Assembly (NCBI RefSeq): GCF_001598795.1
Contig: NZ_BCZP01000018.1
Location: 1-32,000, forward strand
From: Delftia acidovorans NBRC 14950
Lineage (GTDB): Bacteria > Pseudomonadota > Gammaproteobacteria > Burkholderiales > Burkholderiaceae_C
Reading direction: 5' to 3'
Length of the DNA stretch: 32,000 nucleotides
Below are positions 4,555 to 25,354 of the stretch, in pieces. Below the pieces are notes generated by a model. It was not told where the DNA came from, did no database searches, and was given only the letters and a program-made list of their open reading frames with translations. Position 1 is the first letter of the stretch. The number at the start of each line of letters is the position of its first letter. Made by a program: the position numbers and the translations under genes.

Positions 4555-5394
4555 TTACGGCGCCAGCATCTGCGCCGTGCGCGCGCGGGCCTGCTGGACC
4601 AGGGTGGAGATCAGCACCGTCTCGGGCAGGTTGTGCCAGTAGCGGCGCGGCATCTCGCGCAGCATGGCCTGCTCCTTCAGGCGCGCCGGGTTGAAGGTGC
4701 TGGCGTAGTAGGTCAGCCACAGGGCCTCGCCCGCGTCGGCTGGCGGGGCATCGCTGCGGCGCGCGCCGGGCGCCAGGCGCAGCGCATGGCCGTCCCAGTG
4801 CGCGCTGCACTGCGGCGTGAGGATGGCCCAGTGCATGTTGGCAAAGCGCTTGCAGAAGAAGGGCGCTGCCGCGCGCACGATGTGGTGCTCGGGCTCGAAC
4901 CAGGCGATGTGCAGCTCGGGCAGGTTCTGCCGCTGTGTCGTCCGAAAGCGCACGAAGGCGTGCATCTTGTGGATCTCGCGCGAGACGGGGCGGGCCAGGG
5001 CCTCGATGGCGCGCCAGTCCGCATCCAGCGCATCCAGCCGCAGTTCGGGCCGGGCCTGCATGCGCGCCAGCCAGCGGTGGCATAGCTCGAAGCGGCCCGC
5101 CGCGTGGTGCATGCAGGCATGGCGCAGCGCGGACATCTGGGTGTCAGACAGGGACAGCCCTGCCTCGCCGGGGCCGGCCAGCCCGGCGAGTGCCGAGGCG
5201 GGCATGGCCTGTTCCGGCGCGCTGGAAAACAGGTCCACGCCCGCGCCGAGTTGCTGCGCACCCCGCGTGTCGGGCCACCGCCAGCGCACCACAGCGGGGT
5301 CGGCGCCATGGGCCAGCAGCGCCCGGCAGGCTGCGCGAAAGCCGGGCCAGTCGTCGGGGCTGTCGAGTTCGATGGTGAGAGCCTGTGCTTGCAT
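4555..5394 (-). CDS. TIGR03915/DUF4130-family probable DNA metabolism protein (partner of the radical SAM protein), not fused to a UDG-like domain
   Basis: 279-aa ORF 15 nt downstream of the radical SAM gene, with GGAG 7 nt before the ATG. The C-terminal half (HKMHAFVRFR...WFEPEHHIV...FFCKRFANMHWAILTP...STFNPARLK...M..EMPRRYW.NLPE) matches my recollection of the family that always pairs with TIGR03916. Confidence 0.82.
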   Translation of the reverse strand: MQAQALTIELDSPDDWPGFRAACRALLAHGADPAVVRWRWPDTRGAQQLGAGVDLFSSAPEQAMPASALAGLAGPGEAGLSLSDTQMSALRHACMHHAAGRFELCHRWLARMQARPELRLDALDADWRAIEALARPVSREIHKMHAFVRFRTTQRQNLPELHIAWFEPEHHIVRAAAPFFCKRFANMHWAILTPQCSAHWDGHALRLAPGARRSDAPPADAGEALWLTYYASTFNPARLKEQAMLREMPRRYWHNLPETVLISTLVQQARARTAQMLAP

Positions 5395-5409: not shown

Positions 5410-6729
5410 TTAGAACAGGCTGGCCTGCAGCGCGCTTTGCACGCGCATGCCGCTGTGCCGTGCCTGGGCCTGGCTGGCCTGCGACTGCGCGATCAGCCGG
5501 GTGCGCAGCGCGGCCGAGTCGGTCTCGCCCAGCAGGGGCCGGTGGCCGTCGATCAGCACGAAGGGCAGGGCCTTTTGCACGGGGGCGCGCAGCCGCAGCA
5601 GATCGTCCAGCCGCAGCCTGCGCACGCGGCGCGCCGCCAGCAGGCGGTCCACCGTCTGCGTGCCCAGGCCCGGCACGCGCAGCAGCAGGCTGCGCGGCGC
5701 ACGGTTGAGGTCCACGGGGAACTGCTGTCGGTTGGCCAGTGCCCAGGCCAGCTTGGGGTCGATCTCCAGGTCCAGCATGCCGTGGCGGCTGGCCGCCGCG
5801 ATCTCGCCCGCCCCGTAGTCGTAAAAGCGCATCAGCCAGTCGGCCTGGTAGAGCCGGTGCTCGCGCATGAGGGGCGGCGCCTGCGGCGGCAGATCGCGCG
5901 AGGCATCGGGAATGGGGCTGAAGGCCGAGTAGTACACGCGGCGCAGGCCGTAGCCCGCATACAGCGTGTGGCTGGATTCGAGGATGTCGGCATCGGTTGC
6001 GCGGTCGGCGCCCACGATCATCTGCGTGCTCTGCCCGCCCGGCGCAAAGCGCGGCACGGCGGCGCGCTGCGCGGGCGCGCCGGGCAGGGACTGCGCCTGG
6101 CGCTGCTCGCGCGTGGCCGCGCGCCAAGCCTGCACATGCCGGTCCACGCCCTGCATGGCCTGGCGTATGCGCTGTCCATCCTTTTCAGGCGCGAACTGCG
6201 CCAGGCCGCTGGCCGTGGGCAGTTCCACATTGATGCTCAGGCGGTCGGCATGGCGGCCTGCCTGGGCCAGCAATTCGGGGGCGGCATCCGGGATGGTCTT
6301 CAGATGGATGTAGCCGCGAAAGTCATGCTCCTCGCGCAGGCGGCGCGCCACTTCCACCAGTTGCTCCATGGTGTAGTCGCTGGAGCGGATGATGCCGCTG
6401 GACAGGAACAATCCCTCGATGCAGTTGCGCCGGTAGAAGTCCAGCGTCAGCTGCACCACCTCGGTCACCGTGAAGCGGGCGCGCTGCACGTTGGAGCTCT
6501 TGCGGTTGATGCAGTAGCGGCAGTCGAAGATGCAGACATTGGTCAGCAGGATCTTGAGCAGCGAGATGCAGCGCCCGTCGGGCGCATAGCTGTGGCAGAT
6601 GCCCATGCCGGTGACCGAGCCCATGCCCTTGCCGTCCAGCGAGTCGCGCCCCTGCGATCCGCTGGAGGCGCAGCTGGCGTCGTACTTGGCGGCGTCGGCG
6701 AGGATGAAAAGTTTGCGTTGCAGCTCCAT
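5410..6729 (-). CDS. Putative DNA modification/repair radical SAM protein (TIGR03916-like)
   Basis: Start chosen at MELQRKLFILADAAKYDASCASSG (ATG 6727-6729); the 91-codon upstream extension in the track crosses the promoter/LexA box. It carries the radical SAM CxxxCxxC motif (NVCIFDCRYC) and a C-terminal helix-hairpin-helix-like LLRVPGLGTQTVDRLL. Confidence 0.9.
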   Translation of the reverse strand: MELQRKLFILADAAKYDASCASSGSQGRDSLDGKGMGSVTGMGICHSYAPDGRCISLLKILLTNVCIFDCRYCINRKSSNVQRARFTVTEVVQLTLDFYRRNCIEGLFLSSGIIRSSDYTMEQLVEVARRLREEHDFRGYIHLKTIPDAAPELLAQAGRHADRLSINVELPTASGLAQFAPEKDGQRIRQAMQGVDRHVQAWRAATREQRQAQSLPGAPAQRAAVPRFAPGGQSTQMIVGADRATDADILESSHTLYAGYGLRRVYYSAFSPIPDASRDLPPQAPPLMREHRLYQADWLMRFYDYGAGEIAAASRHGMLDLEIDPKLAWALANRQQFPVDLNRAPRSLLLRVPGLGTQTVDRLLAARRVRRLRLDDLLRLRAPVQKALPFVLIDGHRPLLGETDSAALRTRLIAQSQASQAQARHSGMRVQSALQASLF

Positions 6730-6731
6730 TG

Positions 6732-6747
6732 CTGTATAAATATACAG
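6732..6747. promoter_or_regulatory. LexA (SOS) box CTGT-N8-ACAG
   Basis: The + strand reads CTGTATAAATATACAG. On the gene strand it reads ATACTGTATATTTATACAGCaATG, close to the E. coli consensus TACTGTATATATATACAGTA. It ends 2 nt before the radical SAM start codon. Confidence 0.8.
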
Positions 6748-7206
6748 TATATTTGCATGGCACGTCCGGTTTTCTGAGAGCCCATCCCCCAGCCAGGGTC
6801 TGGTCCGGCCTTGCCTGGCTGCGGGTCGAGCGCACTGTCGGGCTATCGCAATGGCCAGCGGATTGCAATGGTTGCCAGTGCAATGGAATGAAACCGTTTT
6901 CAGTGCGGAATGAGTGCTTGCTTTCAATCGGTGGCGATGTGCATCGCAGGAAATGGTGAATGCGTGTCTCCTGCGTCTTTCACAATGCCAGAAGGCTGGC
7001 ATGGCTTGGTGCCATCAATGCATGCGCTGATATAGCGCAGCTGGCTGCGCGCCATGGGGTTCCCCATTCATGGGAGAGAGGCTGGGTGTTGTTGTGAATT
7101 GTTTCAAATTGCCGATAACTATTGCTGATAGGCTTTCAGGTTTGCCGGGCAGTGCCGTTTCATTCAATGCGCCCGGCGATGACAAACACTTGGAGAGGGA
7201 GCTTCG

Positions 7207-8652
7207 GTGTCGCGTGTATTAGGAACAGAGAGCGAAGTGCTGGCGCTGTCGCCGGACGCCTCATCCAGCAAGGCCGCCAAGGGCCTGCAATCGCCCGCCA
7301 AATGGCCCGCCATGGGCGCCAATGATGTGGCGGTCTGGGGTGAATGCCAGGGCAGCGGCAGCAAGCCCTACCAGACCCAGGTGGACCTGTCGGGGCCTTC
7401 CTTCAAATGCTCTTGCCCCAGCCGCAAATTCCCCTGCAAGCACGGGCTGGCGCTGATGCTGATGCGTGCCGGCGGGCAAGTCCCCGAAGGCGTTGATCCG
7501 CCCGCCTGGGTGCAGACCTGGCTGGACAGCCGCCAGGAAAAGGCCGAGAAGAAAGAGGCCAAGGCTGCCGCCGCAGCGGCCGAGCCGCCACCCGATCCCG
7601 AGGTCGCGGCCAAACAGCAGGCCAGGCGCGAAGACAAGCGCTGGGACAAGGTCGAAGCCGGCCTGCAGGAACTGTCGCTGTGGATGCAGGACATGGTGCG
7701 TGCGGGCCTGGCCAACCAGGCCAGCGACACGCAGATGCGCCAGCGCTGGAACAACATGGCCGCGCGCATGGTCGATGCGCAGGCCACGGGCATGGCGGCG
7801 CGCATCAAGGATTGCCGGGATCTGGTGGACAGCCACCGAGACTGGCCGCGCGACATGCTGGTGCAGCTGGGCCACTGGCAGTTGATCATCGACGCCGTGC
7901 GCCGCCGCGAATCGCTCAGCCCCGAGGTCAAGGCCGACGTGATGGCCGCGCTGGGCTGGCCCATGGACAAGGCCGAGGTGCAGGCCAGGGGCCAACTGGT
8001 CGAGGACGAATGGCTGGTGGCCGGCCTGCGCATGATCGAGCGCGAAGGCCGGCTCATGGAGCGGCGCGTCTGGCTGCAGGGCCAGCGCACGGGGCGCATG
8101 GCCCTGGTGCTGGACTATGCGCAGGGCGGCCGCGGCTTTGAATCGGCCTGGGTGCCGGGCCATCGCTACGGCTGCGCGCTGAATTTCTATCCGGGCCATG
8201 CGCCGCTGCGCGCCATTGCGGCCAATGGCAACGGGCCTGCGCTGCCTGCCGATGGCGCCAGCCCGCTGGCCACCTCGGCCGTGGGCGACGTCCTGCAACG
8301 GCTGGGCCAGCGCATTGCCGCCAACCCGCTGCAGGCCACGCAGCCGCTGTGCCAGGACCGGCTGCGGCTGGTGCCCGCCCAGGGCCAGTGGTTCGCGGCC
8401 TGGCCCCAAGCGCTGGATGCATCGCCGGTCACCCCTGGCACGGCGGCGCCAGTGCAGCCCGTTCCCGTGGCGATTGACGATGCCGAGGCCTGGCGCCTGC
8501 TGGCGCTCAGCGGCGGTGCGCCCATGCAGCTGTTTGGCGAATGGGAGCCCGGCCCGGCCGTGGGCCGCTGGCGGCTGCTGAGCGCCTGGCAGGCCCGCGA
8601 GGGTGAAACCGCCCAGCAATGTATCTGGCAGAACCAGGGTGATCCGGTATGA
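7207..8652 (+). CDS. SWIM zinc-finger family protein (first gene of the five-gene cluster)
   Basis: 481 aa with a GTG start preceded by GGAGAGGGAG (7192-7201). SWIM CxCxnCxH motif FKCSCPSRKFPCKH (nt 7408-7443), followed by a K/E/A-rich charged linker. The stop overlaps the next start (ATGA at 8649-8652). Confidence 0.85.
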   Translation: MSRVLGTESEVLALSPDASSSKAAKGLQSPAKWPAMGANDVAVWGECQGSGSKPYQTQVDLSGPSFKCSCPSRKFPCKHGLALMLMRAGGQVPEGVDPPAWVQTWLDSRQEKAEKKEAKAAAAAAEPPPDPEVAAKQQARREDKRWDKVEAGLQELSLWMQDMVRAGLANQASDTQMRQRWNNMAARMVDAQATGMAARIKDCRDLVDSHRDWPRDMLVQLGHWQLIIDAVRRRESLSPEVKADVMAALGWPMDKAEVQARGQLVEDEWLVAGLRMIEREGRLMERRVWLQGQRTGRMALVLDYAQGGRGFESAWVPGHRYGCALNFYPGHAPLRAIAANGNGPALPADGASPLATSAVGDVLQRLGQRIAANPLQATQPLCQDRLRLVPAQGQWFAAWPQALDASPVTPGTAAPVQPVPVAIDDAEAWRLLALSGGAPMQLFGEWEPGPAVGRWRLLSAWQAREGETAQQCIWQNQGDPV

Positions 8653-10463
8653 GCAACGCACAACTTTGGGCTGCGCTGCAGCAATCGGCCATGGTCGGCT
8701 CGGACCGGCTGGCCGTGCCGCCTGCGCTGGCTTCGGGCGTGGACCCGTCCGCAAGCGGGTCGCAGCAGGCCGTGCAGGCCGCGCTGCTGCCCCGCGCTGA
8801 TGTGGCCGGTGACTCGCCCGCCCAGCAACTGCTGCGCGCCAGCGCCGTGGCGGCCGTGTTCGAGCGGGCCGGCTGGCAGCCTGGCGCGCAGGTGCGCCTG
8901 ACGGCACCGCTGGCCGTGCCGGCCGCCGCGCCTGCGGAGTCGCGCACCGCGCCTGCCGATGCGCGCCTGCACACCCTGATGGGCGACGTGCTCAAGGACG
9001 GCCCGTTCGAGCTGCAGGCCTCCATGCTGCGCACCCTGGACCAGGCCGGCCAGCGCCTGCCCCACGATCTGCTGGTGCCTGCGCTGGAGCAGGGCCGCCA
9101 GTCCGTGGAACTGCGCCAGTGGCTGGCCCCCGTGCTGGGCGAGCGCGGACGCTGGCTGGGCACGCTCAACCCGCAATGGGGCTATGCCAGCGGCGTGGAG
9201 GAAACCGCCGACCCCGAACTGGTCTGGCAGGAGGGCTCGGTGGAGCAGCGCGTGGCCCTGCTGCGCAGCGAGCGCGCAACCGATGCCGCCAAGGCCCGCA
9301 CGCGGCTGGAAGGCAGCCTGAAGGAGCTGGGCGCCAAGGAGCGCCTGCCCCTGGTCCAGGCCCTGGCCGTCGGGCTGGGCATGGACGATGAGCCGCTGCT
9401 CGAAAAACTGCTGTCCGACCGCAGCAAGGAGATCCGCGAGAACGCCGCGCAAATGCTCTCGTGCCTGCCGGACAGCGCGCACAGCCAGCGCGTCATGGGC
9501 TGGATGCAGTCCATGCTGCAGCAGGACGACAAGGGCCAGTGGATCGTGGAGCCTCCCGAAGAAGGCCTCAAGGAATGGGAGCGCGACGGCATCACGCTCA
9601 AGCCCGACGCCTACCACCGTGGCGGCAAGAAGGCCTGGCTGCTCGAGCAGATGGTGCAGCTCACGCCTGTGTCCTTCTGGACCCGCGCCCTGGGCCTGAC
9701 GCCCTTGGAAGTGATGGAGTGGAGCCGGCGCAGCGACTGGAAGTCCTCGCTGCGCCAGGGCTGGGTGCGGGCCCTGCAGTACCAGTTGGACGTGGAATGG
9801 ATCGATGCCGCCCAGACCATGGGCCGCGACATGCGCCACGACGCGCTCCTGCCCGCCCTCATGGCCCGGTTGTCCCGCGAGGAACGCGAGTCCCGCTGGA
9901 TTGCCCAGTTCGAGCGCGACAGGCACAAGCTCATCGATGCCATCGAAGGCATGTCCCAGTCGCTGGGCGGCGCCGAACTGCTCTCGCCCGCGCTGTCGGC
10001 GCGGCTGACCGAGGCACTGCACGTGGCCGTGGGCGGCAAGCAGATCACGGGCAACTGGCACAGCTACCGCGCCGACCAGGCCCTGCTGTCCTGTGCGCGC
10101 ATGCTGGACGTGACCGCGCTGGAGCGCTTTGCCGACCTTTGGCGCAAGCCCTCGGTGTTGGATGCGCAACCCGAGCCTGAGCCCGAGCCGCAGACCGAAC
10201 CTGCGGCAGATGCCGGCGCGGCATCTGCATCGGCATCGGTATCCGTAGCAGCTGCAGCAGCAGTCACGGCCACCGCTGCCGCCACAGCCGCTGCAGTTGC
10301 CGCACCTGCAAGCATTCCCCTCACGCCCCAGCAGCAGGCGCGCCTCGAACGCAGCCGCGTGCGGCCCTGGGATGAAGAGCGCATGCGCGGCCATCTGGAG
10401 CGCATCGTCGATCTGCGCCTGGGCCTGCACCAGGCCTTTGTTGCCCTGCGCGGCCCGGCCTGA
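8649..10463 (+). CDS. DUF5691-like protein with HEAT-like repeats and a C-terminal low-complexity PE/Ala-rich tract
   Basis: 604-aa ORF translationally coupled to the SWIM gene. HEAT-like segment LLSDRSKEIRENAAQMLSCLPDS. The family name rests on recalled co-occurrence with SWIM/AAA/DUF5682/VWA genes and was not verified by search. Confidence 0.7.
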   Translation: MSNAQLWAALQQSAMVGSDRLAVPPALASGVDPSASGSQQAVQAALLPRADVAGDSPAQQLLRASAVAAVFERAGWQPGAQVRLTAPLAVPAAAPAESRTAPADARLHTLMGDVLKDGPFELQASMLRTLDQAGQRLPHDLLVPALEQGRQSVELRQWLAPVLGERGRWLGTLNPQWGYASGVEETADPELVWQEGSVEQRVALLRSERATDAAKARTRLEGSLKELGAKERLPLVQALAVGLGMDDEPLLEKLLSDRSKEIRENAAQMLSCLPDSAHSQRVMGWMQSMLQQDDKGQWIVEPPEEGLKEWERDGITLKPDAYHRGGKKAWLLEQMVQLTPVSFWTRALGLTPLEVMEWSRRSDWKSSLRQGWVRALQYQLDVEWIDAAQTMGRDMRHDALLPALMARLSREERESRWIAQFERDRHKLIDAIEGMSQSLGGAELLSPALSARLTEALHVAVGGKQITGNWHSYRADQALLSCARMLDVTALERFADLWRKPSVLDAQPEPEPEPQTEPAADAGAASASASVSVAAAAAVTATAAATAAAVAAPASIPLTPQQQARLERSRVRPWDEERMRGHLERIVDLRLGLHQAFVALRGPA

Positions 10464-10533
10464 GCCGCGCCCGTCCTGCCGCATACCCCGAACCGAACCG
10501 AATCCAACCCTTACCCCTTCCCGGAAGCACACC

Positions 10534-11616
10534 ATGAGCCAAGTCCTGCGCCAGCATGCCGAACAGCAATTCGCCGAAGAACTCGAAGCCCTGCGCAAGG
10601 TGGACGACCGTCCGCGTCCGCCCAACTGGAAGCTCTCGCCCTGGGCCGTGCTCCAGTACCTGATGGGCGGCAAGCTCGGCAACGGCTTTGAAGTCAGCCC
10701 CAAGTACATCGGCAATCCGCGCCTGATGGAAATCGCCGTCTCCACCCTGGCCACAGACCGCGCCCTGCTGCTATACGGCGTGCCGGGCACGGCCAAGTCC
10801 TGGGTGTCCGAGCACCTGTCGGCCGCCGTCAGCGGCGACTCCACCATGCTGGTGCAGGGCACGGCCGGCACCAGCGAGGAGCAACTGCGCTACGGCTGGA
10901 ACTATGCCCAGCTGCTGGCCCACGGCCCGTCCGAGAAGGCGCTGATCCCCAGCCCCCTGGTCAATGCCATGAAGCTGGGCAAGATCGCCCGCATCGAAGA
11001 GCTGACCCGCATCCCGGCCGACGTGCAGGACACGCTGATCACCGTGCTGTCCGAAAAGACCCTGCCCGTGCCCGAGCTGGGCAGCGAAGTGCAGGCCGTG
11101 CAGGGCTTCTCGGTCATCGCCACGGCCAACAACCGCGACAAGGGCGTGAACGAGTTGTCCAGCGCGCTCAAGCGCCGCTTCAACACCGTCATCCTGCCCG
11201 TGCCGGCATCGCAGGACGAAGAGGTGCAGATCGTCACCAAGCGCGTGGCCGAGCAGGGCCGCGCCCTGGCCCTGCCCGCCGAGCCGCCGGCCCTGCAGGA
11301 AGTGCGCCGCGTGGTGCAGATCTTCCGCGAGCTGCGCAACGGCCAGACCGAAGACGGCAAGACCGTGCGCGTCAAGTCGCCCAGCAGCACGCTGTCCACG
11401 GCCGAGGCCATCTCGGTCATCAACAGCGGCATGGCGCTGGCCGGGCATTTCGGCGACGGCGTGCTGCGCGCGGGCGATGTGGCCTCGGGCCTGCTGGGCG
11501 CCGTGATCAAGGACCCGGTGCAGGACAGCGTGGTCTGGAAGGAATACCTGGAGACCGTGGTCAAGGAGCGCAGCGACTGGAAGGATCTGTACCGCGCCTG
11601 CCGCGAGCAGCTCTGA
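10534..11616 (+). CDS. MoxR-like AAA+ ATPase (AAA_5 type, YehL-like)
   Basis: Start chosen at MSQVLRQHAEQQF (ATG 10534), giving 360 aa. Walker A GVPGTAKS (10777-10800), Walker B-like IARIEEL (10984-11004), and the downstream AAA_5 pattern VIATANN...LSSALKRRF. Confidence 0.9.
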   Translation: MSQVLRQHAEQQFAEELEALRKVDDRPRPPNWKLSPWAVLQYLMGGKLGNGFEVSPKYIGNPRLMEIAVSTLATDRALLLYGVPGTAKSWVSEHLSAAVSGDSTMLVQGTAGTSEEQLRYGWNYAQLLAHGPSEKALIPSPLVNAMKLGKIARIEELTRIPADVQDTLITVLSEKTLPVPELGSEVQAVQGFSVIATANNRDKGVNELSSALKRRFNTVILPVPASQDEEVQIVTKRVAEQGRALALPAEPPALQEVRRVVQIFRELRNGQTEDGKTVRVKSPSSTLSTAEAISVINSGMALAGHFGDGVLRAGDVASGLLGAVIKDPVQDSVVWKEYLETVVKERSDWKDLYRACREQL

Positions 11617-11667
11617 AGCCCCCAGTCCCGCACCGCTGACCGACCGCACCCTCTGCGCATCCCCTGT

Positions 11668-14325
11668 ATGGCCACCTCTGCCAATCCGCTTCATTTCTTC
11701 GGCATCCGCCACCATGGCCCGGGCTGCGCGCGCAGCCTGCTGCAGGCCCTGGAGCAGCTGCAGCCCGACTGCCTGCTGGTGGAGGGCCCGCCCGAGGGCG
11801 AGTCCCTGCTGCCCATGCTGCAGCATGCCGACCTGCAGCCGCCCGTGGCCATGCTGGTCTATGTGCAGGACAGCCCGGCCCATGCCGCCTTCTATCCCTA
11901 TGCCGAGTTCTCGCCCGAATGGCAGGCCCTGCAATGGGCGGCGCGCCAGGGCGTGGCCACGCGTTTCATCGACCTGCCCCAGACCCACCGCATGGCGCTG
12001 GACATGGCCGAGCAGGAGCGGCGCCGGGCCGAGGCGGCGGCAGCAGATGCAGCTGATGCAGGCGCGGATGCGGCCGATGGAGGCCAGGATGCAGATGCCG
12101 ACACCGGCTCCGATTCCGACTCCGACTCCGACTCCGACTCCGACTCCGACTCCGACTTCGACTCCGACTTCGACTCCGACTCCGACTCCGACTCGGTCGC
12201 CGCTGCGGCAGACGGCAGCCAGCTCCAGAGCAATGCCGCCGAGGCCCTGGACCGCGACGACACCACGCAGTCCGTGCCGGCTGCCGACCTGGCCGTCGAT
12301 CCCTCGGCACCGTCCCCGCAGGACTGGCACGATCCGCTGGACCTGCTGGCCGAGGCCGCTGGCTACCCCGACGGCGAAAGCTGGTGGAACCGCATGGTCG
12401 AGGAACGCGGCGACGGCGCCACCCTGTTCGAGGGCATTGCCGAAGCCATGACCGTGGTGCGCGCCGAGCTGCCCAACGAAGTGCGCGGAGAACGCCACGC
12501 CCAGCGCGAGGCATTGCGCGAAGCCTGGATGCGCCAGTGCATGCGCGAGGCCGTCAAGGCCGGCCACCAGCGCATTGCCGTGGTCTGCGGCGCATGGCAT
12601 GTGCCGGCCCTGCAGGCCCAGGTCACCGCCAAGGCCGATGCCGCCACGCTCAAGGGCCTGCCCAAGGCCAAGGTCCAGGCCACCTGGGCACCCTGGACCT
12701 ACCGCAACCTGTGCTCGTCCAGCGGCTATGGCGCGGGCGTGGATTCGCCGGGCTGGTATGAACATCTGTGGCGCTGCTCCGAGCCTGTGCCCGAGTCCAT
12801 GTCTCAGTCCGCACCTGCTGCCGACCCGGCACGCGCCAGCACCCAGCGCACCGTCGGCTGGCTGGCGCGCGTGGCCCATCTGCTGCGCTCCAAGGACCTG
12901 GACTGCTCCAGCGCCCACATCATCGAGGCCACGCGCCTGGCCGAAAGCCTGGCGGCCCTGCGCGGCCACGCCAGCCCCGGCCTGCCCGAGCTGGACGAGG
13001 CCATCGTCACCGTCATCAGCATGGGCGAGCGCACGCCGCTGCGCCTGATCGAGCGCGAACTCAGCGTGGGCGACCGCATCGGCGGCGTGCCCGCCGACGT
13101 GCCCCAGGTGCCGCTGCAGCGCGACATCGAGCAGCAGCAAAAAAGCCTGCGCCTCAAGCCAGAGGCGGCCGCCAAGGTCCTGGCCCTGGACCTGCGCAAG
13201 GACACGGACCGCGAACGCAGCCACTTCCTGCACCGCCTGCGCCTGCTGGGCATAGAGTGGGGCAGCGTCACCACCGACCAGCAGCGCAACCGCGGCACCT
13301 TCCGCGAAAGCTGGCAGCTGCAGTGGGAGCCCGAGCTGGCCGTGCGCATCATCGAGGCCAGCCGCTACGGCGGCACCCTGGTGCAGGCCGCCGCCGCCAA
13401 GGTGCGCCAGGCGCTGACGCCCGAGACCCCGCTGCCCGAGCTGGCCAAGACCATCGACGACGCCCTGCTGGCCGACCTGCCGCACCTGGTCGATGCCCTC
13501 ATGCACGACCTGGCTGACCGCTCGGCCAGCACCGGCGATGTTTCCCAGCTCATGCAGGCGCTGCCGCCGCTGGCCAATGTGCTGCGCTACGGCAGCGTGC
13601 GCCAGACCGACACCCAGGCCCTGGCCACGGTGATCGACAGCATGGCGCTGCGCGCCGCCATCGGCCTGCCCCTGGCCTGCATGGCGCTGGATGAAGACGC
13701 TGCAAGACACATGCAGGCCACGGTGCTGCAGGCCCACGAGGCCCTGCGCCTGCGCGATGCCGAGGAGCCGCGCGAAGCCTGGTTCGGCGCCCTGCGCAGC
13801 ATTGCCATGGGCGACGCGGGCGCCGCCTTGCTGCGCGGCGCGGCCTGCCGCCTGCTGCTCGATGCCCACCGCCTGGACAGCGAGGCCGTGGCCACGCAAC
13901 TGGGCCGCAATCTCTCGCTGGGCGTGCCGCCGCTGGACGCTGCCGCCTGGCTGAACGGTTTTCTCAACCGCCAGGCCCTGGTGCTGCTGCACGACGACGC
14001 CATCTGGGGCGCCGTCGATGCCTGGCTGGCGCAGCTGGGCGAGACCCAGTTCACCCAGATCCTGCCCCTGGTGCGCCGCAGCTTCTCGGCCTTCTCCAAC
14101 CATGACCGCCAGAGCCTGGGCGAAAAGGCCCGGCGCGGCCAGGGCAGTGCGGCCGTGGCGGCTGCATCCGCAGGTGCCGCGGGTGCCGCAGGTGCGGCAG
14201 GCGATGGGAACGACGGCGCCTGGAACGAGGCGCGTGCCATTCTCGCCATTCCCGTACTCGATCAACTGCTGGGCCTGAACATGCCCGCGCAACCGCTGAC
14301 CCGCCTGCAGGAGGCCCAGCCATGA
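11668..14325 (+). CDS. DUF5682-like large protein (YehM-like) with an acidic Asp/Ser repeat insert
   Basis: 885-aa ORF. N-terminus HFFGIRHHGPGCARSLLQALEQLQPDCLLVEGPPE, and a long alpha-helical remainder. The stop overlaps the VWA start (ATGA at 14322-14325). The family name comes from memory of this gene neighbourhood. Confidence 0.75.
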   Translation: MATSANPLHFFGIRHHGPGCARSLLQALEQLQPDCLLVEGPPEGESLLPMLQHADLQPPVAMLVYVQDSPAHAAFYPYAEFSPEWQALQWAARQGVATRFIDLPQTHRMALDMAEQERRRAEAAAADAADAGADAADGGQDADADTGSDSDSDSDSDSDSDSDFDSDFDSDSDSDSVAAAADGSQLQSNAAEALDRDDTTQSVPAADLAVDPSAPSPQDWHDPLDLLAEAAGYPDGESWWNRMVEERGDGATLFEGIAEAMTVVRAELPNEVRGERHAQREALREAWMRQCMREAVKAGHQRIAVVCGAWHVPALQAQVTAKADAATLKGLPKAKVQATWAPWTYRNLCSSSGYGAGVDSPGWYEHLWRCSEPVPESMSQSAPAADPARASTQRTVGWLARVAHLLRSKDLDCSSAHIIEATRLAESLAALRGHASPGLPELDEAIVTVISMGERTPLRLIERELSVGDRIGGVPADVPQVPLQRDIEQQQKSLRLKPEAAAKVLALDLRKDTDRERSHFLHRLRLLGIEWGSVTTDQQRNRGTFRESWQLQWEPELAVRIIEASRYGGTLVQAAAAKVRQALTPETPLPELAKTIDDALLADLPHLVDALMHDLADRSASTGDVSQLMQALPPLANVLRYGSVRQTDTQALATVIDSMALRAAIGLPLACMALDEDAARHMQATVLQAHEALRLRDAEEPREAWFGALRSIAMGDAGAALLRGAACRLLLDAHRLDSEAVATQLGRNLSLGVPPLDAAAWLNGFLNRQALVLLHDDAIWGAVDAWLAQLGETQFTQILPLVRRSFSAFSNHDRQSLGEKARRGQGSAAVAAASAGAAGAAGAAGDGNDGAWNEARAILAIPVLDQLLGLNMPAQPLTRLQEAQP
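12109..12192 (+). repeat. In-frame hexanucleotide microsatellite (TCCGAC)n, about 14 units, encoding (SD)n
   Basis: Read directly: tccgat tccgac, then 12 more units, two of them the variant ttcgac. Translation is GSDSDSDSDSDSDSDSDFDSDFDSDSDSDS inside the DUF5682-like CDS. Confidence 0.95.
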
Positions 14326-15554
14326 ACACCGCTGCCACCGTGAACGATGCACCCCTTGCCGGCGCCGACCCGCAGGAGACCGCCCCCCAGCCCACCACCC
14401 GCCTGCAACGCTGGCGCCTGGTGCTGGGCCAGCCGTCCGAGGCCAGCTGCGGCGGGCTGGGCCCAAAGGGCAGCTCCATCGACGAGATGGACAAGGCCCT
14501 GGCCGCGCTCTACGAAGAGGACAACAAGGACGGCGGCCTCTCGCGCCGCGGCGGGCGGGGCAACTCCTCGCCCAGCGTGGCGCGCTGGCTGGGCGACATC
14601 CGCAAGTACTTTCCCAGCCAGGTCGTGCAGGTCATGCAGCGCGACGCCATGGAGCGCCTGAACCTGCGCGAACTCATGCTCCAGCCCGAAATGCTGGAGC
14701 ATGTGCAGCCCGACGTGCACATGGTGGCCGACCTCATCTCCCTGGGCTCCGTCATCCCGCAGAACACCAAGGAGACCGCGCGCATCGTCGTGCGCAAGGT
14801 GGTGGACGACCTCATGCGCCGCCTGGAAGAGCCCATGCGCAGCGCCGTCTCGGGCGCGCTGGACCGCAGCCAGCGCAACCGCCGTCCGCGCCACTCCGAG
14901 ATCGACTGGAACCGCACCATCCGCGCCAACCTGCGCCACTGGCAGCCCGACTACCGCACCATCGTGCCCGAGACCCTGGTCGGCTACGGCCGCAAGGTCC
15001 GCCGCCCGCAGCGCGAAGTCATCCTGTGCATAGACCAGAGCGGCTCCATGGCCAACTCCGTCGTCTACTCCAGCATCTTCGGTGCCGTCATGGCCAGCCT
15101 GCCGGCCGTCGCTACCCGTCTGGTGGTCTTCGACACGGCGGTGGTGGACCTGACCGACAAGCTCTCCGACCCGGTGGATGTGCTGTTCGGCGTGCAGTTG
15201 GGCGGCGGCACCGACATCAACCGTGCCGTGGGCTACTGCCAGGGCCTGATCAGCGAGCCGCGCAACGCCATCGTCGTGCTCATCTCCGACCTCTATGAAG
15301 GCGGCGTGGAAAGCGGCCTGCTGCGCCGCGCCTCCGAACTGGTGGAGTCGGGCGTGCAGTTCATCACGCTGCTGGCGCTCAGCGACGAAGGCGCGCCTGC
15401 CTACGATGCACAATTGGCCGCCAAGCTGGCCGCGCTGGGCGTGCCGTCGTTTGCCTGCACGCCGGACGCCTTTCCGCAGCTCATGGCCGCCGCCATCCGC
15501 CGCGACGACGTGGCTGCCTGGGCGGCAGGGCAGGGCTTCAAGACCAGCAAGTGA
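14322..15554 (+). CDS. VWA domain protein, CoxE-like (YehP-like), with an intact MIDAS motif
   Basis: 410 aa. MIDAS DxSxS = DQSGS (15033-15047), later GGGTD, and the N-terminal RWRLVLG motif typical of CoxE-type VWA partners of MoxR ATPases. Confidence 0.9.
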   Translation: MNTAATVNDAPLAGADPQETAPQPTTRLQRWRLVLGQPSEASCGGLGPKGSSIDEMDKALAALYEEDNKDGGLSRRGGRGNSSPSVARWLGDIRKYFPSQVVQVMQRDAMERLNLRELMLQPEMLEHVQPDVHMVADLISLGSVIPQNTKETARIVVRKVVDDLMRRLEEPMRSAVSGALDRSQRNRRPRHSEIDWNRTIRANLRHWQPDYRTIVPETLVGYGRKVRRPQREVILCIDQSGSMANSVVYSSIFGAVMASLPAVATRLVVFDTAVVDLTDKLSDPVDVLFGVQLGGGTDINRAVGYCQGLISEPRNAIVVLISDLYEGGVESGLLRRASELVESGVQFITLLALSDEGAPAYDAQLAAKLAALGVPSFACTPDAFPQLMAAAIRRDDVAAWAAGQGFKTSK

Positions 15555-15682
15555 CGGACGGCCGGTCGGCCCCGTGACCGGGCTGGCCGCCGGGCATCTC
15601 CTACATGGGCAGGACATGCCCAGGCCCCATGATGGCGCCCAGGCAAAAAGAAGTTCCCCGAACAATTCACTGGAGTAATGCG

Positions 15683-16660
15683 ATGGCTGGTGCTGGTTTG
15701 CTGATGCTGCTGGACGATATTGCAGCGATCCTGGACGACGTGGCCCTCATGACCAAGGTCGCGGCCCGCAAGAGCGTGGCCATGGCCGACGATGTGTCCG
15801 TCATGACCAAGGTGGCTGCACAGAAGACGGCTGGCGTGCTGGGCGATGACCTGGCCCTGAACGCCCAGCAGGTCACGGGCGTGCGGGCCGAGCGCGAGAT
15901 TCCCGTGGTCTGGGCCGTGGCCAAGGGCTCGCTGATCAACAAGGCCATCCTGGTGCCGGCGGCGCTGCTCATCAGCGCCTTCATTCCCTGGGCTGTCACG
16001 CCGCTGCTCATGGTCGGCGGCGCCTTTCTGTGCTTTGAGGGTTGCGAGAAGCTGGCCCACAAATTCCTGCATTCGCCCGAGGAAGATGCCGTGGAGCGCG
16101 AGCGCCTGACCCAGGCCAATGCCGATGCGGGCGTCGATCTCGTCGCCATGGAAAAGGACAAGATCAAGGGCGCCGTGCGCACCGACTTCATCCTCTCGGC
16201 CGAAATCATCGCCATTACCCTGGGCACCGTGGCCTCGGCGCCGTTCGGGCAGCAGGTCGCCGTGCTGGCGGGCATTGCCCTCATCATGACCGTGGGCGTC
16301 TATGGCCTGGTGGCCGGCATCGTCAAGCTCGATGACCTGGGACTGTGGCTGGGCCAGCGTGCCAGCGCTGCGGCCCGCGCGCTGGGCCGGGGCATCGTCG
16401 CCGCCGCGCCCTGGCTGATGAAGGGGCTGTCCGTTGCGGGCACGGCCGCCATGTTCCTGGTGGGTGGCGGCATCCTCGTGCACGGCGTGCCTGCGCTGCA
16501 CCACGCCGTGGAGGGCCTGGGCGAGGCCGTGGCCCAGGGCGCGCTGGGCGGCCTGTGGCGCGTGCTGGCGGTGAATGTGCTCAACGCGGTGGCAGGCATC
16601 GTGGCCGGTGCCATCGTGCTGGCGGCTGTCGAAGGCATCAAGCGCCTGCGCCGCCGCTGA
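15683..16660 (+). CDS. yedI: DUF808 family inner-membrane protein (YedI-like)
   Basis: Start at [20 protein letters not shown] (ATG 15683, GGAG 8 nt upstream). Collinear with E. coli YedI as I recall it (MAGSSLLTLLDDIATLLDD...[16 protein letters not shown]...APWLMK...FLVGGGI). Confidence 0.88.
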
Positions 16661-16967: not shown

Positions 16968-17576
16968 ATGATTTCCAACCTCACCAAGGCCAGCGTGCTG
17001 CGGTCCGTCATCGCCGGCTGCACGCTCGCGCAAGCGGGCAGGGCCGAGAAACTCAGCACCGAGCGCGCGCGCACGGCGCTCAACCGCATCTGCGAGCTGC
17101 TGCATCTGCCCAACGACCTGGCCGCCATCCAAGCGGAGCCGCAGCTGTACCTCGAATCCCTGGCCCACTTCGAGAGCCTGCCCCAGTTCGAGCTGCGCAC
17201 GCCGCTGGTGGCCAAGCTCAAGCAGGTGCTGGGCCTGCGCTCATCCAGGCAACTGACGCCGGCCGTGCTCGCGCAGGTCAGCGCGTCACAGCTCATCAAC
17301 CAGGGCCTCTCCATCATCGCCCTGGCCGATCTGCAGGAGTGGCTGCTCAAGCATGACCTGTCGCTGAGGCATAGCCCGCCCATCACGGATATCGACTTCA
17401 GGGAGGCCCGAAAAGCCATTGCCTTGCTCGACGCCTTCGACTTCGACACCGAATCGCTGGAATGGCAAATGAATCACCTGGCCCGCAAGCGCGGCCGGGC
17501 CAGGAGCCGGCCTGCCCCGGCTGCCTGCGCAGTGGAATCCCTGCCTGCCGTCAGCACCACAGGGGCTGCGCCCTAA
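16968..17576 (+). CDS. Hypothetical protein (202 aa), no recognisable family
   Basis: ATG at 16968 preceded by AGGGGGA and in frame with track ORF 16575..17576. The upstream extension overlaps the yedI end and its terminator. High GC3 codon pattern and an Arg/Pro/Ala-rich tail. Confidence 0.55.
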   Translation: MISNLTKASVLRSVIAGCTLAQAGRAEKLSTERARTALNRICELLHLPNDLAAIQAEPQLYLESLAHFESLPQFELRTPLVAKLKQVLGLRSSRQLTPAVLAQVSASQLINQGLSIIALADLQEWLLKHDLSLRHSPPITDIDFREARKAIALLDAFDFDTESLEWQMNHLARKRGRARSRPAPAACAVESLPAVSTTGAAP

Positions 17577-17608
17577 TATCGGGGCTTCCCAACAAGGCCC
17601 GATACACC

Positions 17609-21047: not shown

Positions 21048-21216
21048 CAGACGAGCAGGTCCGCGATGCGCTGTGCCGGATGGAAGCCGCACCGAGCGTG
21101 CTGCAGATGCATGCCGAGTGGGCTGTCTGTTGCTGTCCGCCAGGCGTTGTTCCAAGAGCGGGGCCTGCATTGCTCCCGCTCTGGCGGGCAGCAATGGAGG
21201 CACTCAGAACCGATAG
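21017..21216 (+). pseudogene. Truncated, internally deleted paralogue of the 20540-20950 gene
   Basis: 21053-21118 aligns to 20585-20650 (58/66 nt; EQVRDALCRMEAAPSVLQMHAE vs EQVNDALCQMGAALSVLEMHAE). It then jumps about 208 nt and changes frame to align with 20859-20950 (LLLSARR...GAC...LAGSNG..QN). Confidence 0.65.
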
Positions 21217-25327: not shown

Positions 25328-25354
25328 GGGGCGGGTTCCTGGGAATGCGGATTT

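What the first reader, a model, noticed from the sequence alone, without database searches (positions are those of the whole stretch)
7207..15554. Five-gene SWIM / DUF5691 / MoxR-AAA+ / DUF5682 / VWA operon with no assigned function
The five genes are co-directional, with two ATGA stop/start overlaps (8649-8652, 14322-14325) and gaps of only 70 and 51 nt, which indicates a single operon. Its contents are:
- a SWIM Zn finger protein (CxCx6CxH)
- a HEAT-like repeat protein
- an AAA_5/MoxR ATPase with Walker A GVPGTAKS
- an 885-aa protein with a TraB-like N-terminus
- a CoxE-type VWA protein with an intact MIDAS (DQSGS)

MoxR-VWA pairs elsewhere act as ATP-driven maturases or remodellers of one specific client (RavA-ViaA, CbbQ-CbbO, NorQ-NorD, CoxD-CoxE, BchI-BchD). 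The three extra large proteins would then be candidate client, adaptor or effector subunits. As I recall, the same set of families makes up the uncharacterised E. coli yehL-yehM-yehP-yehQ locus (the YehL subfamily of MoxR). No phenotype or biochemistry is known to me for any member. The SWIM finger (nucleic-acid or protein binding) combined with a possible hydrolase domain also fits an NTP-dependent conflict or defence-type machine. The cluster sits divergently next to an SOS-regulated DNA-repair pair.
Basis: partly seen in the sequence, partly recalled or inferred. Interest (0 to 1): 0.85.

Follow-up and report, generated by a model that had tools for sequence, protein, structure and literature searches.

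The report
DNA-damage-linked five-gene MoxR–VWA operon
This is a widely conserved five-gene operon for an ATP-driven protein-remodelling machine, the same operon that Deinococcus workers named ddrTUVWX because radiation switches it on; what it does is still unknown, but its regulation in two distant bacterial groups links it to the DNA-damage response.

Summary
Five co-directional genes (7207-15554) encode SWIM, DUF5691, a MoxR/AAA_5 ATPase, DUF5682 and a CoxE-type VWA protein, and every junction and motif is as described.

The set is a real unit. 63 of 80 loci from about ten phyla carry all five families, and most of the others are cut by contig ends. No flanking gene family is shared across phyla.

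The motor is extremely conserved: MoxR is 70-84% and VWA 57-74% identical across phyla. SWIM and DUF5691 diverge to 23-46%.

E. coli yehLMPQ is only a distant paralogous type. YehL is 39% identical, there is no DUF5691, and YehQ matches only at the SWIM finger.

The operon is not unnamed. In Deinococcus deserti it is ddrTUVWX, radiation-induced through IrrE/DdrO, function unknown (PMC5552922).

New here: all 24 Streptomyces-type loci carry two back-to-back PafBC-type DNA-damage promoters between the diverging halves.

There is no defence-island, mobile-element or PADLOC signal, and E. coli carries its version as a core locus.

Best reading: a DNA-damage-response MoxR–VWA remodeller, made of a SWIM/DUF5691 targeting module and a MoxR/DUF5682/VWA motor module. 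Its client is unknown.

It is a new member of a known, uncharacterised kind. Interest is moderate to high.

The parts
7207..8652 (+). Gene 1 (ddrT-like): SWIM zinc-finger protein, 481 aa. N-terminal SWIM fold, long helical region (about residues 100-260), two beta-rich C-terminal domains.
   Evidence: Pfam SWIM above cut-off. AF2 model with pLDDT 88.8. Conserved in 66 loci. GTG start preceded by GGAGAGGGAG.
7408..7443 (+). SWIM finger codons CSCPSRKFPCKH (CxCx6CxH).
   Evidence: Translation. C68, C70, C77 and H79 are at least 93% conserved across phyla.
8649..10463 (+). Gene 2 (ddrU-like): DUF5691 protein, 604 aa, probably a helical-repeat partner of the SWIM protein. Its start overlaps the gene 1 stop (ATGA).
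   Evidence: Pfam DUF5691 E 2e-113, and only a sub-threshold HEAT hit. Always next to the SWIM gene, including in the divergent Streptomyces layout. In-frame SWIM-DUF5691 fusion in L010.
10534..11616 (+). Gene 3 (ddrV-like): MoxR-type AAA+ ATPase (AAA_5, YehL subfamily), 360 aa.
   Evidence: Pfam AAA_5 E 3e-37. 39% identical to E. coli YehL. 70-84% identical to orthologues in other phyla. Best solved relatives are Midasin AAA domains (5e-15) and NorQ (1e-5).
10777..10800 (+). Walker A GVPGTAKS. The Walker B equivalent, IARIEE (residues 151-156), has E-E instead of D-E.
   Evidence: Translation. R153, E155 and E156 are at least 93% conserved.
11668..14325 (+). Gene 4 (ddrW-like): DUF5682 protein, 885 aa. 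N-terminal alpha/beta domain with invariant R14-H15-H16, E39, R284-E285, G308 and H311, then a long helical C-terminal region.
   Evidence: Pfam DUF5682 E 1e-255. Invariant columns shared with E. coli YehM. AF2 model of residues 1-470: seven-stranded alpha/beta core, pLDDT above 90 in the core.
11980..12330 (+). Disordered, net-acidic insert in DUF5682 (residues 105-221). It contains a hexanucleotide repeat at 12098-12194 that encodes (Asp-Ser)n.
   Evidence: pLDDT below 50. Net acidic in 75 of 79 homologues, median length 62 aa. Tandem repeat with 16.2 copies. Length differs among Delftia relatives.
14322..15554 (+). Gene 5 (ddrX-like): CoxE-type VWA protein, 410 aa. Its start overlaps the gene 4 stop (ATGA).
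   Evidence: Pfam VWA_CoxE E 4e-53. 36% identical to YehP. 57-74% identical across phyla.
15033..15047 (+). MIDAS motif DQSGS, completed by T297 (GGGTD) and D323 (ISDLYEGG).
   Evidence: Translation. All five residues are at least 93% conserved.
6748..7206 (.). Upstream intergenic region. The operon's promoter was not identified.
   Evidence: No sigma-70-like site found. No motif shared with other proteobacterial loci. The LexA box at 6732-6747 lies at its far end, next to the divergent radical-SAM gene.

Best explanation
The cluster is the Delftia orthologue of the ddrTUVWX operon. It encodes a five-subunit MoxR(AAA+)-VWA remodelling machine that works in the response to genotoxic stress.

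Shown:
- The five genes form one conserved, self-contained module across about ten phyla.
- The module splits into two sub-modules that stay intact when the operon is split: SWIM+DUF5691, and MoxR+DUF5682+VWA.
- In Deinococcus deserti the operon is strongly radiation-induced through the IrrE/DdrO switch (literature).
- In Streptomyces-type actinobacteria both halves sit behind PafBC-type promoter motifs.

Inferred mechanism, by analogy with NorQ/NorD, CbbQ/CbbO and Rea1:
- A MoxR hexamer is coupled to its target by the VWA protein, whose intact MIDAS site grips an acidic residue.
- DUF5682 is encoded between MoxR and VWA and its stop overlaps the VWA start, so I take it to be the motor's fixed partner or immediate substrate. 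Its conserved His/Glu/Arg pocket may be a metal-dependent hydrolase site, and its acidic disordered loop is a candidate MIDAS ligand.
- The SWIM/DUF5691 pair supplies targeting, to nucleic acid or to a specific protein.
- ATP hydrolysis then remodels, extracts or processes a protein or nucleoprotein complex that builds up after DNA damage. The client is not identified.
For: Unit and sub-modules:
- 63 of 80 loci carry all five families: 41 collinear and 22 with SWIM-DUF5691 divergent from MoxR-DUF5682-VWA.
- ATGA coupling joins gene 1 to gene 2 and gene 4 to gene 5.
- L010 carries an in-frame SWIM-DUF5691 fusion.
- No flanking gene family is conserved across phyla.

Motor integrity:
- Walker A, sensor and arginine residues and the MIDAS residues are at least 93% conserved.
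- MoxR is 70-84% and VWA 57-74% identical across phyla, against 23-55% for the other three proteins. This points to constraint, not recent transfer.

DNA-damage link:
1. D. deserti Deide_18730 to Deide_18690, described as a 'five-gene operon of unknown function', is induced more than 10-fold (first gene) and more than 5-fold after irradiation. Induction depends on IrrE, and an RDRM lies upstream in four species. It was named ddrTUVWX (PMC5552922; PMC4007540; PMC6300522).
2. The D. taeanensis locus has the same five families. TTGACA-17-TACAAT is overlapped by TTACGCCAGAAACATAA just before the SWIM gene, which resembles published RDRMs. Its proteins are 70/53/43/33% identical to the window's MoxR, VWA, DUF5682 and SWIM proteins.
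3. All 24 divergent actinobacterial loci carry two TGTCAG-N10-(T/C)ANNNT promoters, one facing each way. These fit the PafBC ChIP consensus tGTCgg(N10)tA(N3)T (PMC8635444). 43 of 47 strict motif hits in 540 kb fall in these intergenic regions. Nocardia has a near-match.
Against: - No damage-response motif was found upstream of the operon in proteobacterial, Bacteroidota, Verrucomicrobia, Planctomycetes or Chloroflexi loci.
- In the window itself, the LexA box lies 460 nt from the SWIM start and directly abuts the other gene.
- Neighbours are not repair genes.
- The operon is absent from D. radiodurans and D. geothermalis, so it is not needed for extreme radioresistance.
- No nuclease, helicase, ligase or other recognisable DNA-processing domain is present.
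- SWIM fingers can bind protein as well as DNA.
- Damage regulons also contain restriction and metabolic genes, so induction does not prove a repair role.
- The PafBC assignment in Streptomyces is by motif only. One study reported that the mycobacterial motif is not obviously conserved in S. venezuelae (PMC9380542).
- The hydrolase idea for DUF5682 has no statistical support.
Confidence: 0.5

Rival explanations
1. The operon is a dedicated maturase or cofactor-insertion chaperone for one metalloenzyme, as CoxD/CoxE, NorQ/NorD, CbbQ/CbbO or the chelatases are. DUF5682 would act as a metal-binding chaperone or as the client itself.
For: The VWA protein belongs to the CoxE family and the ATPase to MoxR/AAA_5. 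NorQ is among the nearest solved relatives. DUF5682 has an invariant His-His/Glu/His cluster that could bind a metal.
Against: No candidate client enzyme is conserved next to the module in any two phyla. Regulation by DdrO and by PafBC-type promoters is not what a constitutive enzyme-maturation factor would need. The SWIM and DUF5691 proteins have no counterpart in known maturase systems.
Confidence: 0.15
2. The operon is an NTP-dependent anti-phage or conflict system. It would be induced by DNA damage because damage wakes prophages.
For: Distribution among species is patchy: at least 578 of 185,579 species representatives. vWA-MoxR modules occur in known conflict systems (PMC10910872). The D. 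deserti damage regulon also contains a restriction enzyme. Regulators of the WYL family, to which PafBC belongs, are involved in phage defence in some bacteria (abstract of PMC10693628).
Against: - No PADLOC family matches four of the proteins, and the ATPase gives only E-values of 2e-3 to 7e-3 to IetA.
- The bpMoxR profile scores below its cut-off.
- No effector domain was found, and the neighbourhood has no island, integrase or toxin signature.
- Position is stable within Streptomyces and Comamonas.
- The E. coli version is present in 5353 of 5426 complete genomes.
- It occurs on only 44 of 72,556 plasmids, mostly large and non-mobilizable, and in 1 of 50,697 phage records.
- MoxR is 70-84% identical across phyla, the opposite of arms-race divergence.
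Confidence: 0.12
3. The operon is a regulated protease or hydrolase unrelated to DNA. DUF5682 would be a TraB/TIKI-like metal hydrolase, and the MoxR-VWA pair would switch its activity or deliver its substrate during general stress.
For: Four motifs in DUF5682 are colinear with E. coli YbaP (TraB family): G-x-x-H after strand 1, hhhhE after strand 2, R-E-x-x-M, and hhhhG-x-x-H. All are invariant, including in YehM. Two HSP90 genes are among the neighbours.
Against: There is no Pfam TraB hit even at E 10. hhalign gives a probability below 1%, although that test was shown to be underpowered. Foldseek found no solved-structure match at E <= 1e-3. This reading does not explain the damage-specific regulators.
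Confidence: 0.1
4. The five genes are merely adjacent and do not work together.
For: None beyond the absence of direct transcript data for this organism.
Against: All five co-occur in 63 of 80 loci across about ten phyla. Two junctions are translationally coupled. No + strand terminator-like site lies in the gaps between the genes. The literature describes the locus as a five-gene, radiation-induced operon in D. deserti.
Confidence: 0.02

Closest known systems
Deinococcus ddrTUVWX operon (Deide_18730 to Deide_18690; Blanchard et al. 2017, PMC5552922)
   Same: Five genes running from a SWIM protein to a CoxE-like VWA protein. The D. taeanensis copy has the same five Pfam/RefSeq families in the same order, and its proteins are 70/53/43/33% identical to the window's MoxR/VWA/DUF5682/SWIM. 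Function is unknown in both.
   Different: In Deinococcus the operon is controlled by an RDRM operator and the IrrE/DdrO switch. The window has no such motif and its regulation is unknown. D. taeanensis has an extra 78-aa ORF between the ATPase and DUF5682 genes.
E. coli yehL-yehM-yehP-yehQ (YehL subfamily of MoxR)
   Same: MoxR/AAA_5, DUF5682 and VWA_CoxE in the same internal order, plus a SWIM protein. The catalytic-looking residues of DUF5682 are invariant in YehM.
   Different: There is no DUF5691 gene. YehQ (614 aa, two fingers) resembles the window's SWIM protein only at the finger. The SWIM gene comes last, not first. Identities are only 39/28/36%, against 70-84% for MoxR among true orthologues. 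The E. coli neighbours are WGR and DUF4132 genes.
Characterised MoxR-VWA pairs: NorQ/NorD, CbbQ/CbbO, CoxD/CoxE, RavA/ViaA
   Same: An AAA+ MoxR ATPase is encoded with a VWA protein that has an intact MIDAS site. The VWA protein is of the CoxE type.
   Different: Those systems have a known client enzyme encoded nearby and no SWIM, DUF5691 or DUF5682 partners. The sequence relationship is remote (NorQ E 1e-5). Walker B here is E-E, not D-E.
Midasin/Rea1 (eukaryotic ribosome-biogenesis AAA+ with a MIDAS domain)
   Same: It is the best solved-structure sequence match of the ATPase (E 5e-15). The logic is the same: an AAA_5 ring plus a MIDAS domain that pulls on a ligand. An acidic low-complexity stretch sits near the MIDAS partner.
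   Different: Midasin is a single 4,700-4,900-residue chain with six fused AAA modules, whereas here the subunits are separate. No link to ribosomes was seen.
vWA-MoxR-VMAP ternary conflict systems (named in PMC10910872)
   Same: A MoxR ATPase plus a vWA protein plus further dedicated components.
   Different: The bpMoxR profile scores 20 bits against a cut-off of 27. There is no VMAP, beta-propeller or effector domain, and no island context.

Membership tests
MoxR AAA+ ATPase (Pfam AAA_5; YehL subfamily) | AAA_5 domain above the curated cut-off | tested here: met
   128 bits against a cut-off of 22.
MoxR AAA+ ATPase (Pfam AAA_5; YehL subfamily) | Walker A GxxGxGK[ST] | tested here: met
   GVPGTAKS at 10777-10800; conserved at 93% or more.
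MoxR AAA+ ATPase (Pfam AAA_5; YehL subfamily) | Walker B hhhhDE | tested here: inconclusive
   The sequence is IARIEE, with Glu-Glu in place of Asp-Glu. This is conserved across phyla and in YehL (RFEE). It is probably functional, but this was not tested.
MoxR AAA+ ATPase (Pfam AAA_5; YehL subfamily) | Closest to YehL, and encoded with a VWA protein | tested here: met
   39% identity and E 9e-79 to YehL over the full length. A VWA gene lies two genes downstream.
VWA_CoxE with a functional MIDAS | VWA_CoxE domain, and DxSxS...T...D | tested here: met
   181 bits against a cut-off of 26.4. D238, S240, S242, T297 and D323 are present and conserved.
SWIM zinc finger | Pfam SWIM above cut-off, and CxCxnCxH ligands | tested here: met
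   26 bits against a cut-off of 19.6. CSCPSRKFPCKH. The AF2 model shows three strands followed by a helix at residues 35-88.
ddrTUVWX operon (Deinococcus) | Five-gene order SWIM ... VWA_CoxE, with orthologous proteins | tested here: met
   Same families and order in D. taeanensis. Identities are 70/53/43/33%. The product names in the paper match for the first and last genes.
ddrTUVWX operon (Deinococcus) | RDRM operator upstream and IrrE/DdrO-dependent radiation induction | tested here: not met
   No RDRM-like or other damage-response motif lies directly upstream of the window's SWIM gene. IrrE/DdrO is a Deinococcus system. Induction in Delftia cannot be tested here. The window locus is therefore an orthologue of the genes, not a member of that regulon.
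E. coli yehLMPQ type | Same component set | tested here: not met
   DUF5691 is absent from the E. coli locus. YehQ is similar only at the finger. hhalign found no hidden relationship but was underpowered.
TraB/PrgY/GumN (TIKI superfamily) for the DUF5682 N-domain | Profile or fold match to the family | tested here: inconclusive
Known anti-phage defence systems (PADLOC-DB v2) | Match to any defence-system protein model | tested here: not met
   Four proteins have no hit. The ATPase gives only E 2e-3 and 7e-3 to IetA.
PafBC (RecA-NDp) regulon, for the actinobacterial orthologues | -26 element and -10 element with the published spacing, tGTCgg(N10)tA(N3)T | tested here: met
   Two sites per intergenic region in 24 of 24 divergent loci: 48 hits per 19 kb against 38 per 487 kb elsewhere. 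Consensus from PMC8635444.
PafBC (RecA-NDp) regulon, for the actinobacterial orthologues | PafBC binding and damage-induced transcription in vivo | not testable with these tools
   The S. venezuelae mitomycin RNA-seq table could not be mapped to the cluster because its annotations are old.

The most novel reading that the evidence does not exclude
The module is a widespread bacterial 'segregase-plus-hydrolase' for damaged chromosomes. After DNA damage, the SWIM/DUF5691 pair would recognise a protein stuck on DNA, such as a DNA-protein crosslink or a trapped topoisomerase, polymerase or RecA complex. The VWA MIDAS would grip it and the MoxR ring would pull. The His/Glu pocket of DUF5682 would cleave it. 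That would make it a functional analogue of eukaryotic Cdc48/p97 with SPRTN/Wss1, and a mechanistic cousin of Midasin. E. coli yehLMPQ would be a diverged version.
Probability: 0.15. Interest if true: 0.85.

Novelty: new member of a known kind. Interest (0 to 1): 0.6.

Why it matters
MoxR-VWA machines are common, but only a handful have a known client. The YehL-type branch, present in E. coli K-12 itself, has none.

Three bodies of knowledge do not appear together in any paper I found:
- the Pfam DUF5682/DUF5691/YehL family, with 4380 representatives at 50% clustering
- the Deinococcus radiation-induced ddrTUVWX operon
- the actinobacterial PafBC regulon

Tying them together turns an anonymous operon into a testable hypothesis. 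Two unrelated, LexA-independent damage-response regulators have each recruited the same five genes, and the motor is as conserved as core housekeeping proteins.

This tells experimenters which stresses to apply: radiation, crosslinkers and quinolones. It also points to tractable organisms (Streptomyces, D. deserti, E. coli, Delftia) and to residues worth mutating: Walker B E155/E156, MIDAS D238, and DUF5682 H15/H16/E39/H311.

Tried and rejected
1. TraB/TIKI-likeness of DUF5682. Pfam on the spliced N-domain at E <= 10 gave only DUF5682. hhalign against YbaP alone and against a 13-sequence YbaP alignment gave probabilities below 1%. The same set-up also scored the genuine SWIM finger of YehQ at 0.4%, so these negatives are uninformative.
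3. Sequence search of the PDB with DUF5682 and VWA found nothing.
4. Hidden homology of DUF5691 to YehQ, YehI/DUF4132 or DUF5682: none found.
5. Partner genes conserved across phyla in the flanks: none. Conservation is only within genera.
6. LexA-type boxes (five lineage-specific patterns) and shared k-mers upstream of the SWIM gene outside Actinobacteria and Deinococcus. Only one hit, probably chance, in Odoribacter.
7. Near-LexA boxes in the E. coli yeh region occur at chance frequency.
8. Rfam and tRNA scans of the window and four Streptomyces loci found nothing.
9. Mapping the cluster onto the S. venezuelae mitomycin RNA-seq table failed because products are listed as 'hypothetical protein'.
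10. One literature search on the raw motif string returned only noise.


Full report
**1. What is in the sequence**

The window has about 68% G+C. By its closest protein matches it comes from Delftia: DUF5682 is 91-96% identical to the Delftia acidovorans protein.

Five + strand ORFs lie at 7207-8652, 8649-10463, 10534-11616, 11668-14325 and 14322-15554. Their GC3 of 85-92% matches the neighbouring genes.

Pfam assigns SWIM, DUF5691, AAA_5, DUF5682 and VWA_CoxE, all above the curated cut-offs. The SWIM ligands (CSCPSRKFPCKH), Walker A (GVPGTAKS) and the MIDAS residues (DQSGS, T297, D323) are present. The position equivalent to Walker B reads IARIEE, Glu-Glu rather than Asp-Glu. This is conserved in the whole family and in E. 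coli YehL.

No + strand terminator-like site lies in the gaps between the genes.

**2. Surroundings in the window**

| Coordinates | Strand | Gene |
|---|---|---|
| 442-4476 | + | purL |
| 4555-5394 | - | DUF4130 protein |
| 5410-6723 | - | radical-SAM protein |
| 7207-15554 | + | the five-gene cluster |
| 15605-16660 | + | DUF808 membrane protein |
| 17462-18415 | + | TPR protein |
| 19325-19945 | - | GST |
| 21204-25450 | - | TonB receptor, FecR, ECF sigma factor |
| 25528-26172 | + | OmpW |
| 26240-28904 | + | EgtD/EgtB-like pair |
| 30108-31457 | - | Cys/Met-metabolism PLP enzyme (Cys_Met_Meta_PP) |

There are no tRNAs, Rfam families or mobile-element genes. This is ordinary chromosome.

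A perfect LexA box, CTGTATAAATATACAG, lies at 6732-6747, 9-24 nt upstream of the likely radical-SAM start. In Comamonas the cluster sits between purL and DUF808 without that pair, so the adjacency is specific to this lineage.

**3. The five genes are one conserved module**

I searched the 80 best loci with the five window proteins.

- 63 loci contain all five families. Most of the remainder are cut by contig ends.
- 41 are collinear, like the window. These include Beta- and Gammaproteobacteria, Desulfovibrionaceae, Verrucomicrobia, Planctomycetes, Chloroflexi, Bacteroidota and some Actinobacteria.
- 22 have SWIM-DUF5691 transcribed divergently from MoxR-DUF5682-VWA. These are Streptomyces and close relatives.

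This defines two sub-modules. They match the two translationally coupled pairs in the window and an in-frame SWIM-DUF5691 fusion in a Hydrogenophaga MAG.

No flanking gene family is shared between phyla. Flanks are conserved only within Streptomyces or within Comamonas. A Pfam census of 113 immediate neighbours from 31 diverse loci gave transporters, HSP90 (twice), catalase and metabolic enzymes. It gave no integrases, toxins, restriction genes or repair genes.

The family is almost absent from phage records (1 of 50,697). It occurs on 44 of 72,556 plasmid records, mostly large replicons, 32 of them non-mobilizable.

Three Chitinophagaceae loci add a HEAT+DUF4132 gene like E. coli yehI.

**4. 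Unequal conservation**

Identity of the window proteins to orthologues in other phyla:

| Protein | Identity to other phyla |
|---|---|
| MoxR | 70-84% |
| VWA | 57-74% |
| DUF5682 | 42-55% |
| SWIM | 35-46% |
| DUF5691 | 23-34% |

Identity falls smoothly with taxonomic distance. Because the five proteins diverge so unequally, the high values reflect constraint on the motor and not recent transfer. About half of all MoxR and VWA positions are at least 93% conserved. That level is typical of core housekeeping machines. It is not what one expects of an arms-race system.

**5. Relation to E. coli yehLMPQ**

In K-12 the order is yehL (AAA_5), yehM (DUF5682), yehP (VWA_CoxE), yehQ (SWIM), preceded by yehF (WGR), yehH/yehI (DUF4132) and yehK.

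YehL and YehP are 39% and 36% identical to the window proteins. YehM aligns over its whole length (28% overall, 45% at the N-terminus). YehQ shares only the finger, and nothing in the E. coli locus matches DUF5691.

yehLMPQ is therefore a diverged paralogous type, not the same system. It is chromosomal, single-copy and present in 5353 of 5426 complete E. coli genomes.

**6. Protein anatomy**

- **ATPase.** The nearest solved sequences are Midasin AAA modules (5e-15) and NorQ (1e-5). Neither DUF5682 nor the VWA protein has a solved relative detectable by sequence.
- **SWIM protein.** The AF2 model (pLDDT 88.8) shows the finger fold, a long helical region and two beta-rich C-terminal domains. 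Foldseek against the PDB gave nothing significant, only faint OB-fold/SSB/HIN and ZSWIM8 matches.
- **DUF5682, residues 1-470.** The AF2 model (pLDDT 74.7, core above 90) shows a seven-stranded alpha/beta domain interrupted by a disordered insert. The insert is net acidic in 75 of 79 homologues. In the window it contains a 16-copy hexanucleotide repeat encoding (Asp-Ser)n, whose length differs among Delftia relatives.
- **Conserved pocket in DUF5682.** The residues invariant across the family, including YehM, are G12, R14-H15-H16, E39-G40-P41, R284-E285-x-x-M288, and C307-G308-x-W310-H311. These are colinear with the GxxH / E / RNxxW / GxxH motifs of the TraB-family protein YbaP.

No profile or fold test supported the TraB relationship. 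My hhalign control showed the test was underpowered. I treat 'TraB/TIKI-like hydrolase' as a plausible lead and not as a finding.

**7. Regulation: the decisive evidence**

*(a) Literature on Deinococcus.*

[quoted passage not shown] - Deide_18720, Deide_18710 and Deide_18690 are induced more than 5-fold.
- Induction depends on the IrrE protease and the DdrO repressor.
- An RDRM operator lies upstream in D. deserti, D. gobiensis, D. maricopensis and D. peraridilitoris.

The authors named the genes ddrTUVWX (PMC5552922). An earlier transcription-start map placed the start at -30 of Deide_18730 (PMC4007540). [quoted passage not shown] The operon is absent from D. radiodurans and D. geothermalis.

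*(b) My check on D. taeanensis.*

A D. taeanensis megaplasmid carries SWIM, DUF5691, AAA, a small ORF, DUF5682 and VWA. A TTGACA-17-TACAAT promoter there is overlapped by TTACGCCAGAAACATAA, 20 nt before the SWIM start. That sequence closely resembles published RDRMs such as recD ATTACGCTGATGACATAAT (PMC8533742). Its proteins are 70/53/43/33% identical to the window's MoxR, VWA, DUF5682 and SWIM proteins. That is the same pattern as in other phyla, so the window cluster is an orthologue.

*(c) New here: PafBC-type promoters in Streptomyces-type loci.*

In the 24 actinobacterial loci with the divergent layout, the short shared intergenic region always carries two copies of TGTCAG-N10-(T/C)ANNNT, one facing each operon.

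- On the SWIM side, TTGTCAGTGG...TACCTT is followed after about 7 nt by ATG, implying a leaderless transcript.
- On the MoxR side, TTGTCAGTGGCGTGGTGCACGGT is followed by a GGAGGGGG ribosome-binding site and ATG.

This is the spacing and sequence of the PafBC ChIP consensus tGTCgg(N10)tA(N3)T, a -26 element plus a -10 element (PMC8635444). [quoted passage not shown]

The enrichment is strong. 43 of the 47 strict TTGTCRGTG hits in 540 kb fall in these regions. For the relaxed motif there are 48 hits per 19 kb inside against 38 per 487 kb outside.

A collinear Sphaerisporangium locus has one copy at -35 of the SWIM gene. Nocardia farcinica has a near-match, CTGTCGGTG-8-TAGAAA.

PafBC is the ssDNA-activated master activator of the LexA-independent damage response in mycobacteria.

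Caveat: this is a motif prediction. One Streptomyces study reported that the mycobacterial motif was not obviously conserved in S. venezuelae, and I could not map the cluster onto its RNA-seq table.

*(d) Other phyla.*

Outside these two lineages I found no damage-response motif upstream of the operon.

**8. Interpretation**

Two unrelated, LexA-independent damage regulators control, or are predicted to control, the same five genes in two distant phyla. DdrO/IrrE is a repressor system and PafBC an activator. In the window, the operon shares a divergent intergenic region with an SOS-boxed repair-like pair.

Add an intact AAA+/MIDAS motor, a zinc finger of a class that binds nucleic acid or protein, and a large partner with an enzyme-like conserved pocket. 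The best-supported reading is then a damage-response remodelling machine. SWIM/DUF5691 would target it. MoxR and VWA would grip and pull, as in NorQ/NorD, CbbQ/CbbO and Rea1. DUF5682 would be the fixed partner, substrate or hydrolytic subunit.

The module structure, its orthology to ddrTUVWX, the radiation induction in D. deserti and the promoter motifs are shown. The mechanism and the client are inferred. I put 0.5 on the damage-response remodeller reading, 0.15 on a metallo-enzyme maturase, 0.12 on a conflict system and 0.1 on a stress protease unrelated to DNA.

**9. Novelty and score**

The gene set is catalogued in Pfam, belongs to the YehL subfamily of MoxR, and is named in Deinococcus. 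The window locus is therefore a new member of a known but uncharacterised kind.

Three things appear to be new. No held paper mentions DUF5682 or DUF5691.

- The link between ddrTUVWX, the DUF5682/YehL family at large and PafBC-type promoters.
- The two-module architecture.
- The exceptional conservation of the motor.

Interest: 0.6.

Noticed in passing
window 6732-6747: Perfect palindromic LexA box CTGTATAAATATACAG, 9-24 nt upstream of the likely start (ATG at 6723, - strand) of the radical-SAM gene that pairs with a DUF4130 gene. The long ORF listed as 5410-7002 probably overcalls the N-terminus.
   Followed up: partly
window 12098-12194: Hexanucleotide tandem repeat with 16.2 copies, encoding (Asp-Ser)n inside the disordered acidic loop of DUF5682. 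Close Delftia relatives have about 5 copies or none, so it behaves like a strain-variable microsatellite within a coding region.
   Followed up: partly
window 10984-11001 (MoxR residues 151-156): The Walker B position reads IARIEE (Glu-Glu instead of Asp-Glu). This is conserved at 93% or more across phyla and in E. coli YehL (RFEE). It is an unusual feature of this MoxR branch.
   Followed up: partly
window 26240-28904: An EgtD-like methyltransferase and an EgtB-like (DinB_2 + FGE-sulfatase) gene pair, i.e. an ergothioneine-type pathway in a betaproteobacterium. In mycobacteria the ergothioneine cluster is reported to be in the PafBC regulon (PMC8223512).
   Followed up: no
L010 5434-8778: In a Hydrogenophaga MAG the SWIM and DUF5691 reading frames are fused into one 1115-codon open frame with no stop between them. 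This hints at a Rosetta-stone physical association, unless it is an assembly error.
   Followed up: partly
L038 13614-16580, L043 13423-16422, L044 12412-15417; L001 5280-8912: Three Chitinophagaceae loci carry a gene of about 1000 aa with HEAT_2 and DUF4132 domains, placed directly after or inside the five-gene cluster. The same family (YehI) sits beside E. coli yehLMPQ, next to a WGR-domain gene (yehF). It may be an optional sixth component.
   Followed up: partly
L084 8986-11278: On a Hymenobacter radiodurans plasmid DUF5682 is annotated in three fragments and no VWA gene follows; a PDDEXK nuclease gene and a recombinase gene come next. It looks like a decaying copy.
   Followed up: no
L083 8762-8998: Deinococcus taeanensis has an extra 78-codon ORF between the ATPase and DUF5682 genes. 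H. radiodurans also has a small ORF in that position. The window has only a 51-nt gap there.
   Followed up: no
L046-L081 (Streptomyces loci), SWIM/MoxR intergenic regions: PafBC-type promoter motifs are clearly present in Streptomyces at this locus, although a published note says the mycobacterial motif is not obviously conserved in S. venezuelae (PMC9380542). The SWIM-side transcript is predicted to be leaderless. Streptomyces MoxR has a variable N-terminal extension.
   Followed up: yes
L001 1450-1465: A one-mismatch LexA-like box, CTGGATAAAATTACAG, lies 10 nt upstream of E. coli yehF (WGR domain). Such near-matches occur at chance frequency in this locus (10 found, 8.6 expected).
   Followed up: no
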